A stretch of 64,000 nucleotides of DNA from Bacteroidota bacterium (lineage in GTDB: Bacteria; Bacteroidota; Bacteroidia; Chitinophagales; Chitinophagaceae). The position numbers and the translations under genes are program-made. The stretch lies in assembly GCA_037139075.1 (NCBI GenBank), contig JBAXHC010000001.1:2795-66794 (forward strand), read 5' to 3'. Shown in pieces: positions 37,070 to 41,508 of the stretch; positions within the stretch are counted from its first letter, which is position 1, and every line of letters starts with the position of its first letter. Below the pieces are notes generated by a model. That model saw nothing but the letters and a program-made list of their open reading frames with translations. It searched no databases and was not told the origin of the DNA.

Positions 37070-38647
37070 TTAGAAAGGTTGTTCTGTTTCATAACCCTGA
37101 TCGAAGTCAACATCATTCATTTTACTCCCCTTCTGCAGATAGAATTTGGCCCCTTCACCAGCTCCGCCGGCAGATGGTGTAGGTATAGGTGCAATTGGTT
37201 TCCAGTTATTGCCAAGTCCTTCAATACTGCCACCATCACCTTCCCATTCTTCAAAACGCTGAATGGCTAAGTTTGCGCGGAGTTTAATAGTTTCTAAAGA
37301 TCCATTACGATGTTTTGCAATTCTGATATGCGTTTCACCACTTGTGCTTTCACCCATCTCATTACTCTTTACTTCGTAATATTCTGGACGATAGATGAAC
37401 ATTACCATATCCGCATCCTGCTCAATAGCACCCGATTCTCTCAAATCACTTAATTGAGGCATCTTACTTTCTTTTCGGGTTTCAACGGCACGACTTAACT
37501 GACTCAATGCAATGATAGGAACTCCTAATTCTTTAGCAAGTGCTTTAAGGTTTCTGGAGATATTACTGATTTCCTGTTCACGGTTTCCGCCCTTATCATT
37601 GGTTCCACTCATCAATTGTAAGTAGTCGATGATAATGATGCCTACTTTATGTTTGTGAACAAGCCTTCTTGCTTTTGCTCTAAATTCAAAAATATTTAGT
37701 GCTGCGGTATCATCGATATAGATTGGTGCTCTTTCTAATCTATTGATACCTTTTGAAATTAATTGTTGGTATTCGTGGTCTTCCAATTTACCGCGACTAA
37801 TTTTTTCCATTTTAATTTCACTCTCTGCACTTAAAATACGTTGTACTAATTGCGAAGCACTCATCTCCAATGAAAAGAAACCAACAGCAACGGGCTTTGT
37901 GGGATGTAATGCAGCATTGCGGGCAAGGTTAAGTGCAAATGCAGTTTTACCAACCGATGGACGTGCTGCAAGAATAATTAAATCTGTAGGTTGCCATCCA
38001 TAAGTAACACGATCTAATGACCCAAAACCACTCGGCACACCAGAAATTTCTTCTGTTTTGGTTCTTAACTCGTCAATCCGATTCATTGTTTTAGCAAGAA
38101 CCCCTAAAATTTCCTCGAAATTCTTTTTCAAGTAATTGTTAGTGATGTTGAACATTTTGGTTTCTGCTTCATCCAAAAGATCAAAAACGTCGGTACTGTC
38201 TTCGTATGCATCACCAATGATCTCACCACTTATGCGAATCAGTTCGCGCTGAATAAATTTCTGTAAAACTATTCTACAGTGTGCATCGATATTAGCAGTT
38301 GAAACTACTGAGTTCGTTAATTTTGTAACATAATAAGGACCACCCACTGCATCTAATTGTTCCTGAAATTTTAATTCTTCAACAACTGTTAAAAGGTCAA
38401 TTGGATCATTCTTTTGTTGTAATGCCTGCATGGCATGATAGATTGTTTTATGCGATTCCACATAAAAACATTCGGGTTTCAAAATTTCCGAAACGGTATC
38501 AAAAGCGCTTTTTTCAAGCATAATAGCTCCAAGAATAGCTTCTTCCAGCTCTTTTGCTTGTGGGGGTACTTTCCCATAAACCATGGTACTCAGGTCAACT
38601 GTAGTTTTTTTTCTCTTCCGGTCTTTGTTTAAACTTGTTAGGTCCAT
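37070..38647 (-). CDS. dnaB: Replicative DNA helicase
   Basis: PPQAKELEEAILG, AARPSVGKTAF, FFSLEMS, IIDYLQLM, LSQLSRAVE, SDLRESGAIEQDAD, IAKHRNG; no intein-sized insert. Confidence 0.98.
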   Translation of the reverse strand: MDLTSLNKDRKRKKTTVDLSTMVYGKVPPQAKELEEAILGAIMLEKSAFDTVSEILKPECFYVESHKTIYHAMQALQQKNDPIDLLTVVEELKFQEQLDAVGGPYYVTKLTNSVVSTANIDAHCRIVLQKFIQRELIRISGEIIGDAYEDSTDVFDLLDEAETKMFNITNNYLKKNFEEILGVLAKTMNRIDELRTKTEEISGVPSGFGSLDRVTYGWQPTDLIILAARPSVGKTAFALNLARNAALHPTKPVAVGFFSLEMSASQLVQRILSAESEIKMEKISRGKLEDHEYQQLISKGINRLERAPIYIDDTAALNIFEFRAKARRLVHKHKVGIIIIDYLQLMSGTNDKGGNREQEISNISRNLKALAKELGVPIIALSQLSRAVETRKESKMPQLSDLRESGAIEQDADMVMFIYRPEYYEVKSNEMGESTSGETHIRIAKHRNGSLETIKLRANLAIQRFEEWEGDGGSIEGLGNNWKPIAPIPTPSAGGAGEGAKFYLQKGSKMNDVDFDQGYETEQPF

Positions 38648-38791
38648 GGTTATCTAAGGGGTTAGTAGTAAACACTTGGTTGTTCGGGTGATCAAATTAA
38701 ATTTCCGGAAAACCTTTGTCGATGATTTATCGGTAAGGGGAACGAATATGCCTCAAGAAATCCGGTTGTTAAAATTTTTTAGTATCAATAT

Positions 38792-38921
38792 TCGTCCACA
38801 GGTTATTCCACCTTCATTCACATAAAAATAGCAACTATCCACAGAAAAAATAAGAGTTATACACTAATTTCAAAAGTTTTCCGCCCAAATCTAGCCATTT
38901 TGCACAAGTCCTTGTGCAGAA
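38792..38921. promoter_or_regulatory. Cluster of DnaA-box-like 9-mers (candidate oriC or DnaA-regulated site)
   Basis: TCGTCCACA 38792, TATTCCACC 38804, TCATTCACA 38814, CTATCCACA 38835, TTATACACT 38857, TTTTCCGCC 38877, TTTTGCACA 38898, and inverted TTCTGCACA 38913-38921. Confidence 0.6.
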
Positions 38922-39068
38922 AGATTTCTAAAATAATTGTACTGATTCTTCAAAATTAAATGTAAATGAAAAAGCATTTTTTTGATTTCTCTATTGTATA
39001 ATGGACTTTGGTTATACTGTAATAGGGGGCTAAAGTCAACTTAGACCTTATATCCCATTTTTATCACT

Positions 39069-39076
39069 TATTTTTG
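39069..39076 (+). promoter_or_regulatory. -7 promoter element (TATTTTTG) for pheT
   Basis: Exact TAnnTTTG match, 23 nt before ATG 39100. Confidence 0.55.
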
Positions 39077-39099
39077 AAACTCGAAAAGAGATTGATATT

Positions 39100-41508
39100 A
39101 TGACCATTAGTTACAACTGGCTTAGTGAGTACCTCCCTGAAACCTTAGATCCTGAAAAATTATCAAGGATACTTACGTCGATTGGATTAGAAGTAGAAAG
39201 TTTAGAAAGATTCCAATCTATTAAAGGCGGATTAGAAGGGCTTGTAATTGGAGAAGTATTAGCATGTGAGCAACATCCCAATGCAGATAAATTAAAAGTT
39301 ACAAAAGTAAATATTGGCAAAGAGGATTCTTTACAAATAGTTTGTGGCGCTTCTAATGTGGCTGTAGGACAAAAAGTAGTGGTTGCTACTTTGGGAACTA
39401 CTATTTATCCATCGAGCGGGGAGCCTTTAACAATGAAAATTGCAAAGATTCGTGGAGTTGAAAGTTATGGTATGATTTGTGCCGAAGACGAAATAGGAAT
39501 GGGCACAAGTCATGATGGAATTCTAATACTTCCAGAAGGCTTGAATCCCGGAACCCCTGCAACTACATATTTTCAGCCCTATAGTGATTGGATTTATGAA
39601 ATCGGGCTAACTCCAAACAGAATGGATGCCATGAGTCATTTTGGTGTGGCAAGAGACGTATGTGCTTATTTAACGCACCATCAAAAAGATGTGAGAGTTA
39701 AAACACCTTTCAGCAATGGATTTAAAATTGACAATACTAACCTGCCAATAAAAGTTACTGTTGAAAATACTGAAGCATGTCCCAGATATGCTGGTATAAG
39801 TATTAGTGGAGTTGAGGTAAAAGAATCTCCACAATCGTTAAAGAACAGGTTGCTTGCTATTGGATTGAGACCCATTAATAATATCGTAGACATCACCAAT
39901 TTTATATTGCATGAAACTGGACAGCCTTTGCATGCTTTTGATGCAGATGCAATAAAAGGTGCACATATAATAGTGAAAAATGAAGCAGAAGGAACTGTTT
40001 TTACAACACTGGATGGCAAAGAAAGAAAACTAAGTAGTAAAGATTTGATGATTTGCAATGCGGAGGAAGGCATGTGTATCGCTGGAGTATATGGCGGAAA
40101 AGAAAGTGGGGTATCAGCTACAACCAAAAATATCTTTTTGGAAAGTGCCTGGTTCAATCCTTCTAGTATTCGTATTAGTTCTGTGTTTCATGGATTAAGA
40201 ACAGATGCCGCTACTCGTTTTGAAAAAGGTGTTGATATTGATAATACAGTTAATGTATTAAAAAGAGCTGCACTGATGATCAAAGAATTGGCTGGTGGTG
40301 AAATTTCAAGTGAAATTGTAGATGTATATCCTTCCCCTCAACCAAAAACTGAAATTTCATTAAAACACCACTATCTCAAAAAACTCAGTGGCAAAAATTA
40401 TCATGCTGATAAAGTAAATAGAATTTTAACAGCACTTGGTTTTGAAATATTGAAAGAGGGAATGGATGAATTGCGTGTTGCTGTTCCTAGAAGCAAACCG
40501 GATATAAGTTTACCCTGCGATATTGTAGAAGAAATCATTCGGATAGATGGTTTGGATAATATTGAAATCCCTTCTACCATTTCTATAAGTCCAGCCACTG
40601 ATCTGTCTGCACTAAAGGAGAACCTGAAAGATAAAATTGCCAATTATTTAGTTGGGCAAGGGTTCATTGAAATCCTTACAAATAGCATTACAAATAGCAA
40701 ATATTTTGGTGAAGAAGTGTTGGGCAAGTCGGTTAAAATGATCAATAACTTAAGCGCTGATTTAGACATTTTAAGGCCATCCATGTTGGAAACAGGTTTG
40801 GAAACTATAGCTTATAATCTCAACAGAAAAAACAACAATCTTCAGTGTTTTGAATTTGGTAAAACCTATAGCAGCAATGGCCCTGGCGAATATAGCGAAG
40901 CAGAGCATTTGGCTTTATATTTTACCGGAATGGATCAAGAAGAAAGCTGGCATCAGAAAAGTAGAAGTTTTGATATTTATAAGGCCAAAGGAATTGTGGC
41001 AGCCATTATGCAATTGGCAGGAATAGGCGGATTGCAACTCAGTTTGCTGGAAAATACTATTTTGATCAAAGCGGGTAAAAAGGAATTGGGTAGCATTGTT
41101 ACAGTATCAAATAAACAGCTATTAAATTTTGATATTAAACAAGCCGTTTATTTTGTGGATATCGATTTTGTATCACTCTTAAATTTGGTAGAACAGCGTA
41201 AGATCGTATATAAAGAGGTAAATAAGTTTCCTGCAATGCAGCGCGACTTAGCGCTAGTAGTAGATCGATTAATAAGCTTTGACGCGATTGATCAGCAAGT
41301 TCGTAAAACACAAATATCGAAATTGAAACAGGTACGATTATTCGATGTGTTTGAAAGCGATAAATTAGGAGCTGATAAAAAATCCATGGCGGTGAGTTTT
41401 ACTTTTGAGGATGATCAAAAAACCCTTACCGACAAAGAAGTGGATGAGATGGTTGCAAAACTGATTCGTCAATTTGAAAAGGAATTGGGAGCAGAAATAA
41501 GAAAATAG
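39100..41508 (+). CDS. pheT: Phenylalanyl-tRNA synthetase beta subunit
   Basis: ISYNWL, HPNADKL, IRGVESYGMICA, TPNRMD, INNIVDITN, RFEKGVD, C-terminal FDX-ACB (RDLALVVD...KSMA). Confidence 0.98.
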   Translation: MTISYNWLSEYLPETLDPEKLSRILTSIGLEVESLERFQSIKGGLEGLVIGEVLACEQHPNADKLKVTKVNIGKEDSLQIVCGASNVAVGQKVVVATLGTTIYPSSGEPLTMKIAKIRGVESYGMICAEDEIGMGTSHDGILILPEGLNPGTPATTYFQPYSDWIYEIGLTPNRMDAMSHFGVARDVCAYLTHHQKDVRVKTPFSNGFKIDNTNLPIKVTVENTEACPRYAGISISGVEVKESPQSLKNRLLAIGLRPINNIVDITNFILHETGQPLHAFDADAIKGAHIIVKNEAEGTVFTTLDGKERKLSSKDLMICNAEEGMCIAGVYGGKESGVSATTKNIFLESAWFNPSSIRISSVFHGLRTDAATRFEKGVDIDNTVNVLKRAALMIKELAGGEISSEIVDVYPSPQPKTEISLKHHYLKKLSGKNYHADKVNRILTALGFEILKEGMDELRVAVPRSKPDISLPCDIVEEIIRIDGLDNIEIPSTISISPATDLSALKENLKDKIANYLVGQGFIEILTNSITNSKYFGEEVLGKSVKMINNLSADLDILRPSMLETGLETIAYNLNRKNNNLQCFEFGKTYSSNGPGEYSEAEHLALYFTGMDQEESWHQKSRSFDIYKAKGIVAAIMQLAGIGGLQLSLLENTILIKAGKKELGSIVTVSNKQLLNFDIKQAVYFVDIDFVSLLNLVEQRKIVYKEVNKFPAMQRDLALVVDRLISFDAIDQQVRKTQISKLKQVRLFDVFESDKLGADKKSMAVSFTFEDDQKTLTDKEVDEMVAKLIRQFEKELGAEIRK

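What the first reader, a model, noticed from the sequence alone, without database searches (positions are those of the whole stretch)
38648..39099. Helically phased DnaA-box array between divergent dnaB and pheT: candidate oriC
Seen: co-oriented TTWTNCACA-like boxes start at 38792, 38814, 38835, 38857, 38877 and 38898, spaced 22/21/22/20/21 bp (two helical turns). An extra box lies at 38804 and an inverted box at 38913-38921, forming the palindrome TGCACAAG-tc-CTTGTGCA. Mismatches are 0-2 per box. An AT-rich tract follows, with GATTTCT/GATTCTT at 38923, 38944 and 38984. Most nearby genes point away from the site. My rough hand counts of 300-nt samples gave G about equal to C in plus-strand genes to the left and G>C to the right, but these are noisy. 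Established: phased DnaA boxes plus an AT-rich unwinding element define oriC. Inference: a dnaA-unlinked origin beside the helicase gene, or alternatively a DnaA-repressed dnaB promoter (TAGATTTG, minus strand, 38886-38893) or a titration site.
Basis: partly seen in the sequence, partly recalled or inferred. Interest (0 to 1): 0.7.

Follow-up and report, generated by a model that had tools for sequence, protein, structure and literature searches.

The report
DnaA-box array upstream of dnaB
The evenly spaced row of binding sites for the replication initiator DnaA in front of the helicase gene dnaB is real and conserved across a whole bacterial family. It is not the chromosome's replication origin; it most likely lets DnaA tune helicase supply, a link already known in other bacteria.

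Summary
Window 38792-38921 carries six co-oriented DnaA-box-like 9-mers at 20-22 bp steps, one extra box and one inverted box. It is the only chain of five or more such boxes in the 3.37 Mb genome.

The oriC reading fails. In three complete relatives (two Sediminibacterium, one other Chitinophagaceae genus) GC skew keeps the same sign on both sides of dnaB. In the cleanest one, the cumulative skew minimum falls 466 kb away, in the box-rich nadA-ppiD spacer. That spacer is orthologous to this genome's contig C8:33452-34027. On the window's own contig, orientation-corrected GC3 skew is positive on both sides of the site.

The AT-rich tract is ordinary for this genome and is not conserved.

The array is conserved upstream of dnaB in 98 Chitinophagaceae loci. 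It keeps a strong strand bias and spacings that are multiples of about 10.5 bp, and it stays with dnaB when pheT is not the neighbour.

Best reading: a non-origin DnaA-box cluster at the dnaB promoter that couples helicase expression to initiator status and also titrates DnaA. DnaA binding upstream of dnaB is documented in mycobacteria and reported for Caulobacter, and this scan has noted similar arrays in other phyla. It is a new member of a known kind.

The parts
37070..38647 (-). dnaB, the replicative helicase gene (525 aa), the gene the array travels with
   Evidence: Pfam DnaB_C 9e-104 and DnaB N-terminal domain 1e-31
38743..38749 (-). Conserved element CGAATAT (GCGAATAT in relatives; dnaB strand ATATTCG). 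Candidate -7-like promoter element or other protein site, in helical register with the boxes
   Evidence: Invariant in 9 close relatives. The 7-mer is present in 51 of 98 loci in this orientation against 1 on the other strand. The offset to the next box is 49-50 bp in 26 loci, otherwise 72-73 or 92-94 bp
38771..38780 (.). Conserved A/T block AAAATTTTTT between the CGAATAT element and box 1 (possible -33 region of a dnaB promoter)
   Evidence: Conserved in the alignment of the close group. Assignment as a promoter element is inference
38792..38800 (+). DnaA box 1 (TCGTCCACA)
   Evidence: Aligned box conserved in 9 close relatives as T(A/C)(T/A)TCCACA
38804..38812 (+). Intermediate weak box (TATTCCACC), 12 and 10 bp from its neighbours
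   Evidence: Only partly conserved. An 11-12 bp spacing class is seen family-wide
38814..38822 (+). DnaA box 2 (TCATTCACA)
38835..38843 (+). DnaA box 3 (CTATCCACA), the best match to TTATCCACA
38857..38865 (+). DnaA box 4 (TTATACACT; TTATCCAC/TTATCCCC in relatives)
38870..38882 (.). Conserved block TCAAAAGTTTTCC. On the dnaB strand it reads AACTTTTG, a second candidate -7-like element
   Evidence: Conserved in all 9 close relatives. AAAAGTT is present in 44 of 98 loci against 9 on the other strand. Function is inferred
38898..38906 (+). DnaA box 6 (TTTTGCACA), the plus-strand member of a convergent pair
   Evidence: A plus box followed by an inverted box at a 14-15 bp offset recurs in 15 loci of several genera
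38913..38921 (-). Inverted DnaA box (TTCTGCACA on the minus strand). Together with box 6 it forms the palindrome at 38901-38918
   Evidence: TGTGCAGAAAGA is conserved in the close group
38922..39068 (.). Variable AT-rich spacer. Not a conserved unwinding element
   Evidence: 26% GC overall (38922-39099). Its AT-richest 80 bp is matched by 36% of comparable intergenic regions. It is not alignable among relatives. In G018, G003 and G019 it is interrupted by 0.9-2.5 kb carrying other genes
39069..39076 (+). Probable pheT promoter -7 element TATTTTTG (Bacteroidota consensus TAnnTTTG), 24 bp before the pheT start codon
   Evidence: Read. GTATTTTTGAA is conserved at the same place in 11 relatives. 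The consensus itself is from my own knowledge of Bacteroidetes promoters
39100..41508 (+). pheT (phenylalanyl-tRNA synthetase beta chain), the divergent neighbour. It is not linked to the array in all relatives
   Evidence: Pfam B3_4, tRNA_synthFbeta, FDX-ACB, B5. pheT is not the neighbour in about 25 of the family loci that still carry the array

Best explanation
This is a non-origin DnaA-box cluster attached to the dnaB promoter region.

Four to six DnaA boxes all point the same way (TTATNCACA reading away from dnaB). They are spaced two helical turns apart, with occasional one-turn intermediates. A convergent box pair closes the array at its far end.

Shown here: the motif, its phasing, its uniqueness in the genome, its conservation across Chitinophagaceae, its linkage to dnaB and not to pheT, and its position away from the skew switch.

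Inferred: DnaA, presumably as a cooperative ATP-DnaA oligomer on one face of the helix, occupies the array. Occupancy then sets dnaB transcription according to initiator level or activity. As a by-product the array sequesters several DnaA molecules on an origin-proximal part of the chromosome.

The sign of control is not resolved. If the conserved ATATTCG element (38743-38749, dnaB strand) is the -7 box, the array sits at about -55 to -180 and an activator-type or promoter-occluding oligomer geometry applies. If transcription starts upstream of box 4, as one weak metatranscriptome contig would allow, boxes 1-4 lie in the leader and DnaA would act as a roadblock repressor.
For: Array is real and unique:
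- It is the only phased chain of >=5 boxes in the genome, against 0.25 per genome in simulations.

Conservation:
- All 20 congeneric intergenic regions carry co-oriented boxes at 21-22 bp steps.
- In 98 Chitinophagaceae dnaB upstream regions there are 352 boxes in this orientation against 86 inverted.
- Spacing peaks fall at 21-22, 11-12 and 41-43 bp.
- 71 of 98 loci have >=3 co-oriented boxes, against 18 of 654 control intergenic orientations in this genome.
- Unbiased 7-mer counts put ATCCACA (53 loci vs 1) and TATCCAC (46 vs 0) on top.

Linkage to dnaB:
- The array persists where pheT is not adjacent.
- It also persists where other genes are inserted next to it.
- It keeps a fixed 49-50 bp register to the conserved CGAATAT element.

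Same motif type in the inferred true origin spacer of this genome.

Not an origin.

Precedent: DnaA binds upstream of dnaB in M. tuberculosis in vitro and M. smegmatis in vivo. That paper cites the same for Caulobacter (PMC7738170).
Against: - No binding or expression data exist for this organism.
- The dnaB promoter is not mapped. No exact TAnnTTTG on the dnaB strand is conserved, so the geometry relative to RNA polymerase is uncertain.
- Most individual boxes in this genome deviate from TTATCCACA by 1-2 bases, so occupancy may need high or ATP-bound DnaA.
- A 21-22 bp spacing does not allow direct domain III contacts between neighbouring DnaA molecules unless intermediate weak sites are filled.
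- Outside Chitinophagaceae only 0-3 boxes precede dnaB in other Bacteroidota, so the arrangement is not phylum-wide.
Confidence: 0.7

Rival explanations
1. It is the chromosomal replication origin (oriC) or one half of a bipartite origin. DnaA oligomerises on the array and unwinds the neighbouring AT-rich tract.
For: There is a phased, co-oriented box array with an inverted terminal box and an AT-rich tract beside it. dnaA itself lies on another contig with few boxes upstream, so a dnaA-unlinked origin is expected in this lineage.
Against: G017 (complete, 3.72 Mb):
- Skew is negative from 2.9 Mb through 0 to 0.95 Mb and positive from 0.95 to about 2.8 Mb.
- The cumulative minimum is at about 950 kb, in the nadA-ppiD spacer.
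- dnaB-pheT sits at 1,416 kb, with positive skew for at least 150 kb on both sides.

G018: skew is negative on both sides of the locus from 2,756 to 3,115 kb.

G078 (another genus): skew is positive on both sides for +/-100 kb.

Own contig: GC3 replication term is +0.039 on the left (95% bootstrap -0.001 to 0.081) and +0.087 on the right. An origin would predict about -0.085 on the left.

The AT tract is ordinary, is not conserved, and is split by inserted genes in three relatives.
Confidence: 0.03
2. It is a pure DnaA-management element with no role in dnaB transcription. It would be a titration sink, or a datA-like or DARS-like site that changes the nucleotide state of DnaA, kept near dnaB only by history.
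For: - The main boxes share one direction, as in datA. The terminal head-to-head pair is reminiscent of DARS boxes I-II (PMC5742627).
- The locus is on the origin-proximal part of a replichore in three complete relatives, about 150 to at least 300-470 kb from the skew switch. datA is similarly origin-proximal.
- Non-origin box clusters that restrain initiation exist in B. subtilis (PMC3245932).
Against: - The strict family-wide linkage to the dnaB start, 70-300 bp away, survives rearrangements that change the other neighbour.
- The array keeps a fixed helical register to a conserved element next to dnaB.
- Both points are what a promoter-linked site predicts and are not needed for a sink.
- No IHF-type site can be assessed.
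Confidence: 0.15
3. The repeats bind a regulator other than DnaA whose site happens to resemble the DnaA box.
For: No binding data exist. Many boxes deviate at positions 1-3. Additional conserved blocks (CGAATAT, TCAAAAGTTTTCC) show that other factors act here.
Against: - The family-wide position frequencies give T T A/T T N C A C A.
- Several relatives have perfect TTATCCACA boxes in the array.
- The same motif fills the spacer at the skew minimum.
- DnaA binding upstream of dnaB is documented in other phyla.
Confidence: 0.07

Closest known systems
DnaA-bound region upstream of dnaB in Mycobacterium tuberculosis / M. smegmatis (Hicks et al. 2020, PMC7738170), said there to agree with Caulobacter crescentus
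   Same: A cluster of DnaA sites directly upstream of the replicative helicase gene. It lies away from oriC and is conserved between species. In mycobacteria it is one of the five strongest DnaA targets in vitro and in vivo.
   Different: The phylum is different (Bacteroidota) and so is the gene neighbourhood (pheT rather than rplI). Here binding is only inferred. The strict two-turn phasing and the convergent terminal pair are described from sequence only.
Bacillus subtilis DnaA-box clusters (DBCs) outside oriC (Ishikawa 2007, PMC2533591; Okumura 2012, PMC3245932)
   Same: Intergenic clusters of DnaA boxes that regulate neighbouring genes and together restrain initiation.
   Different: As far as the abstracts read here show, the B. 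subtilis DBCs are not at the replicative helicase gene. Any effect of this array on initiation is untested.
E. coli datA and DARS1/2 (review PMC5742627)
   Same: Non-coding DnaA-box clusters. datA is origin-proximal with co-oriented essential boxes, and DARS has a head-to-head box pair.
   Different: Those elements act on the nucleotide state of DnaA and depend on IHF/Fis sites. Neither can be assessed here. They are also not tied to a replication gene's promoter.
Low-affinity DnaA-box arrays of oriC (E. coli left and right DnaA-oligomerisation regions)
   Same: Co-oriented, helically phased 9-mers that suit a DnaA oligomer.
   Different: The oriC arrays use a period of about 11 bp and flank an unwinding element at the skew switch. 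This array mainly uses 21-22 bp, has no conserved unwinding element, and is not at the skew switch.

Membership tests
Chromosomal replication origin (oriC) | Cluster of DnaA boxes | tested here: met
   Six phased boxes plus two more
Chromosomal replication origin (oriC) | Lies at the strand-composition switch (cumulative GC-skew minimum) | tested here: not met
   There is no sign change at the locus in G017, G018, G078 or on the own contig C1. The minimum in G017 is at the nadA-ppiD spacer, 466 kb away
Chromosomal replication origin (oriC) | Adjacent conserved AT-rich unwinding element | tested here: not met
   The AT tract is no richer than in 36% of comparable spacers. It is not conserved and is interrupted by inserted genes in relatives
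Chromosomal replication origin (oriC) | Supports initiation (unwinding, autonomous replication, marker-frequency peak) | not testable with these tools
   Needs experiment
Non-origin DnaA-box cluster at a DnaA-controlled promoter (as upstream of dnaB in mycobacteria) | Several consensus-like DnaA boxes within the promoter-proximal upstream region of the gene | tested here: met
   The boxes lie 145-275 bp upstream of the dnaB start codon. The same is seen at 70-300 bp in 98 family loci
Non-origin DnaA-box cluster at a DnaA-controlled promoter (as upstream of dnaB in mycobacteria) | Conservation of the sites with the gene across species | tested here: met
   94 of 98 loci have >=2 co-oriented boxes and 71 of 98 have >=3. 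The array persists when the other neighbour differs
Non-origin DnaA-box cluster at a DnaA-controlled promoter (as upstream of dnaB in mycobacteria) | DnaA binds the region in vitro or in vivo | not testable with these tools
   No ChIP or footprint data for this lineage
Non-origin DnaA-box cluster at a DnaA-controlled promoter (as upstream of dnaB in mycobacteria) | Gene expression responds to DnaA level or to box mutation | not testable with these tools
   Only two low-depth unstranded metatranscriptome contigs were found
datA-like DnaA-inactivating or titrating locus | Co-oriented essential boxes with an IHF site between them, and an origin-proximal position | tested here: inconclusive
   Co-orientation is met. 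The distance from the skew switch is about 150 kb (G018), 466 kb (G017) and at least about 300 kb (G078). An IHF-type site cannot be judged for this phylum
DARS-like DnaA-reactivating sequence | Core of three boxes with a head-to-head pair that binds ADP-DnaA | tested here: inconclusive
   A conserved convergent pair exists (38898/38913; the 14-15 bp offset recurs in 15 loci). Nucleotide-state preference is untestable here

The most novel reading that the evidence does not exclude
The array is more than a promoter operator. It would be the Chitinophagaceae counterpart of datA/DARS: an origin-proximal DnaA-assembly site, with a head-to-tail array closed by a head-to-head pair, that changes DnaA availability or nucleotide state once per cycle. 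It would be physically coupled to the helicase gene so that initiator activity and helicase supply are set together. Similar arrays noted by this scan upstream of dnaB in several unrelated phyla would then point to an ancient, widespread initiator-helicase control module.
Probability: 0.15. Interest if true: 0.6.

Novelty: new member of a known kind. Interest (0 to 1): 0.3.

Why it matters
Almost nothing is known experimentally about replication control in Bacteroidota. This locus offers a clean, conserved and easily mutable DnaA target in front of the helicase gene in a family with cultured members (Sediminibacterium, Ferruginibacter, Segetibacter and others). It could be used to define the DnaA box, DnaA's role as a transcription factor, and initiator-helicase coupling in this phylum.

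The analysis also cautions that a textbook-looking phased DnaA-box array is not enough to call an origin. As a by-product it places the likely oriC of this genus at the nadA-ppiD spacer, far from dnaA.

DnaA binding upstream of dnaB is already documented in mycobacteria and Caulobacter. The finding therefore extends a known theme and does not open a new one.

Tried and rejected
- Strict TTATCCACA <=1 mismatch clustering finds only one box here. No cluster of more than 3 exists anywhere in the genome, so it was uninformative.
- Loose box counts per 150-300 bp do not single out the site. The other top clusters are degenerate AT-rich hits inside genes.
- Whole-genome cumulative skew could not be done on this genome, which is in 197 contigs. 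I used orientation-corrected GC3 skew per contig and complete relatives instead.
- The GC3 term in 40-kb windows of the low-GC relative G018 was too noisy to place its origin precisely. It even gave the wrong sign around nadA-ppiD. Only raw skew and gene-orientation bias were interpretable there.
- The right side of own contig C8 is not clearly positive. The nadA-ppiD origin assignment for this genome therefore rests mainly on orthology to G017.
- Rfam found no RNA family in the spacer.
- A search for an exact Bacteroidota -7 motif on the dnaB strand found none conserved across the family. The promoter is left unassigned between two candidates.
- Metatranscriptome runs gave only two short unstranded contigs at depth under 3, too weak to map a start site.
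- Literature searches for a described Bacteroidota or Chitinophagaceae oriC returned nothing usable.
- A look-up of earlier notes on this genome returned nothing.

Full report
**What is there**

The window is G000:C1:2795-66794 of a 197-contig, 3.37 Mb, 35% GC draft genome. Titles of near-relative records place it in Sediminibacterium (Chitinophagaceae, Bacteroidota).

The finding lies in the 452-bp spacer between dnaB (37070-38647, minus) and pheT (39100-41508, plus). Both genes are confirmed by Pfam.

- six co-oriented DnaA-box-like 9-mers at 38792, 38814, 38835, 38857, 38877 and 38898, with steps of 22/21/22/20/21 bp
- an intermediate box at 38804
- an inverted box at 38913-38921
- the palindrome at 38901-38918
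- the three GATTYYT heptamers

**Is it more than chance?**

Box density alone is not special. Only one box is within one mismatch of TTATCCACA. Five are within one mismatch of TTWTNCACA, a count reached at about 20 other places. The top-ranked of those I inspected are degenerate AT-rich hits, mostly inside genes.

The phasing is special. Allowing two mismatches and 20-22 bp steps, this is the only chain of five or more boxes on either strand of the genome (length 6). Order-2 Markov genomes gave 0.25 five-chains and no six-chains per genome.

**Is it the origin?**

The draft state rules out a whole-genome skew curve, so I used two approaches.

Own genome. I separated the replication term from the coding-strand term using third-codon-position skew of plus- and minus-strand genes.
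- Across contigs the replication term is bimodal, at about +/-0.085.
- On contig C1 it is +0.087 to the right of the site (95% bootstrap 0.052 to 0.127).
- To the left it is +0.039 (-0.001 to 0.081), not the roughly -0.085 an origin would require.
- Gene orientation to the left is mixed, and further out it points mostly toward the site.

Complete relatives that keep the locus:
- G017 (one contig, 3,715,967 bp). Coarse sampling plus 620 kb of contiguous sequence show negative skew from 2.9 Mb through the start to 0.95 Mb, and positive skew from 0.95 to about 2.8 Mb. The cumulative minimum is at about 950,000. dnaB-pheT lies at 1,416 kb, with positive skew on both sides (GC3 term +0.018 left, +0.075 right).
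- G018 (chromosome contig 3,115,496 bp, 36% GC). Skew is negative throughout 2,756-3,115 kb, which includes the locus at 3,016 kb. The change in raw skew and gene orientation comes at roughly 50-90 kb.
- G078, another genus of the family (4,381,590 bp). Skew is positive for 100 kb on each side of dnaB, and the switch lies somewhere between 0.4 and 1.0 Mb.

The AT-rich tract next to the array does not help the origin reading. Its AT-richest 80 bp (19% GC) is matched by 36% of comparable spacers. It does not align among close relatives. In G018, G003 and G019 it is replaced by 0.9-2.5 kb carrying other genes. The origin reading is therefore rejected.

**Where the origin probably is**

The G017 skew minimum coincides with the nadA-ppiD spacer, which carries many DnaA boxes.

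It is collinear with G000 contig C8:33452-34027. That is a 576-bp spacer between divergent genes, with about ten TCCAC-core boxes.

On C8 the GC3 term changes from -0.149 on the left to -0.039 on the right. The shift is in the right direction, but the right side is not clearly positive.

dnaA lies elsewhere (contig C59; 1,812 kb in G017, 2,671 kb in G018) and has few boxes upstream.

**What the array is**

The decisive evidence is comparative.
- All 20 congeneric spacers I could extract carry co-oriented boxes, several of them perfect TTATCCACA. In the close group the steps are 21-22 bp. In a more distant group with a 200-bp spacer the steps are 22-24/21/11 bp.
- An alignment of nine close relatives shows boxes 1-4 conserved.
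- I pooled those 20 spacers with 78 usable dnaB upstream regions from other Chitinophagaceae genomes, giving 98 loci. Record titles among them include Hydrotalea, Parafilimonas, Segetibacter, Ilyomonas, Deminuibacter, Ferruginibacter, Puia, Ginsengibacter and Flavihumibacter. They hold 352 boxes in the window's orientation against 86 inverted.
- Spacings between successive boxes peak at 21-22 bp (79 cases), 11-12 (29), 41-43 (31) and 31-32 (15).
- A plus box followed by an inverted box at a 14-15 bp offset recurs in 15 loci.
- 71 of 98 loci have three or more co-oriented boxes within 340 bp of the dnaB start. Only 18 of 654 control spacer orientations in this genome do.
- Unbiased strand-specific 7-mer counting puts ATCCACA (53 loci vs 1 on the other strand), CGAATAT (51 vs 1) and TATCCAC (46 vs 0) on top.
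- The array remains where pheT is not the neighbour (about 25 loci) and where other genes have been inserted beside it. So it belongs to dnaB.
- It keeps a 49-50 bp register to the CGAATAT element, or that register plus one or two further 21-22 bp steps.
- Six further genera of the family sampled independently show the same pattern. Other Bacteroidota families show only 0-3 boxes upstream of dnaB.

**How it most likely works**

Shown: a conserved, strand-biased, helically phased set of DnaA-type sites fixed 70-300 bp upstream of dnaB, and not at the origin.

Inferred: DnaA occupies the array cooperatively on one face of the helix and modulates dnaB transcription. Holding several DnaA molecules on an origin-proximal locus also contributes to titration.

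The promoter is not mapped. There are two candidates on the dnaB strand:
- ATATTCG at 38743-38749, with the A/T block about 20 nt upstream. This would put the boxes at about -55 to -180.
- AACTTTTG at 38871-38878. This would put boxes 1-4 in the leader.

A single 164-nt metatranscriptome contig covering 38693-38856 at 100% identity would favour the second. But it is unstranded, has depth 2.6, and could be DNA carry-over. No Rfam family matches the spacer.

pheT has its own well-placed and conserved -7 element, TATTTTTG at 39069-39076.

**Comparison with what is known**

- DnaA binding upstream of dnaB is one of the five strongest DnaA targets in M. tuberculosis (in vitro) and M. smegmatis (ChIP-seq). 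That paper says it agrees with Caulobacter (PMC7738170).
- Non-origin DnaA-box clusters that regulate neighbouring genes and restrain initiation are known in B. subtilis (PMC3245932 and PMC2533591).
- datA and DARS of E. coli are box clusters that act on DnaA itself (PMC5742627).
- Earlier notes of this scan report similar phased arrays upstream of dnaB in Actinomycetota, Rhodocyclaceae, Anaeromyxobacter, Krumholzibacteria, Rokubacteria and an uncultured phylum. I used them as a lead to the mycobacterial paper, which I then read myself. They are not independent evidence.

**Verdict**

The oriC interpretation is rejected. This is a new member, in Bacteroidota, of a known kind of element. Interest is modest.

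Noticed in passing
G000 contig C8:33452-34027 (outside the window; L084:3453-4028): A 576-bp spacer between divergent nadA and ppiD-like genes carries about ten TCCAC-core DnaA boxes. It is orthologous to the spacer at the cumulative GC-skew minimum of the complete relative G017 (about 950 kb). It is the probable oriC of this genus, and it is unlinked to dnaA (about 0.8 Mb away in G017). In this genome the skew shifts in the right direction at the spacer, but the right side is not clearly positive.
   Followed up: partly
L006, L007, L009, L011, L012 (relatives), about 65-85 bp upstream of dnaB; the G000 counterpart at window ~38712-38735 is degenerate: Close relatives share a conserved block ATGTTACCGAATTGTTACC, a direct repeat GTTAC(C) with an 11-bp period. 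It lies between the dnaB start and the CGAATAT element and is largely lost in this genome. It may be a site for another regulator of dnaB.
   Followed up: no
L007:1949-3336 (G018), L013:1955-3449 (G019), L008 (G003): In three congeners 0.9-2.5 kb are inserted between the array and pheT. In G018 the insert encodes a 66-aa XRE-type helix-turn-helix protein and a 156-aa membrane protein on the dnaB strand. In G019 it encodes a 259-aa protein on the other strand. The box array stays next to dnaB.
   Followed up: partly
window 38693-38856 and 38034-38342: Two freshwater metatranscriptome runs each hold one short contig essentially identical to the window (0 and 1 mismatch, depth under 3). One covers boxes 1-3 and the CGAATAT element. 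If it is RNA, the box array is transcribed. Strand and DNA carry-over are unresolved.
   Followed up: partly
L198-L201 (one genus of another family of the same class), 56-201 bp upstream of dnaB: Four genomes share three sites TTATMAACA upstream of dnaB, in the orientation opposite to the Chitinophagaceae boxes. Two of them are 21 bp apart. This may be a diverged counterpart of the array with an AACA core.
   Followed up: no
G000 contig C59:14819-15452 (outside the window): The spacer upstream of dnaA is 634 bp at 26% GC. It has only one TTWTNCACA match (TTTTCCACA) and a few one-mismatch sites. Two tRNA-like sequences follow dnaA. It is AT-rich but box-poor, and dnaA is far from the skew switch in relatives.
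   Followed up: partly
G017:1,246,000-1,266,000 and G017:1,566,000-1,596,000: These are local dips in skew or GC content (38-41% against 46%) within an otherwise uniform replichore of the relative. They are probably acquired islands. They lower the left-hand skew estimate near dnaB.
   Followed up: no
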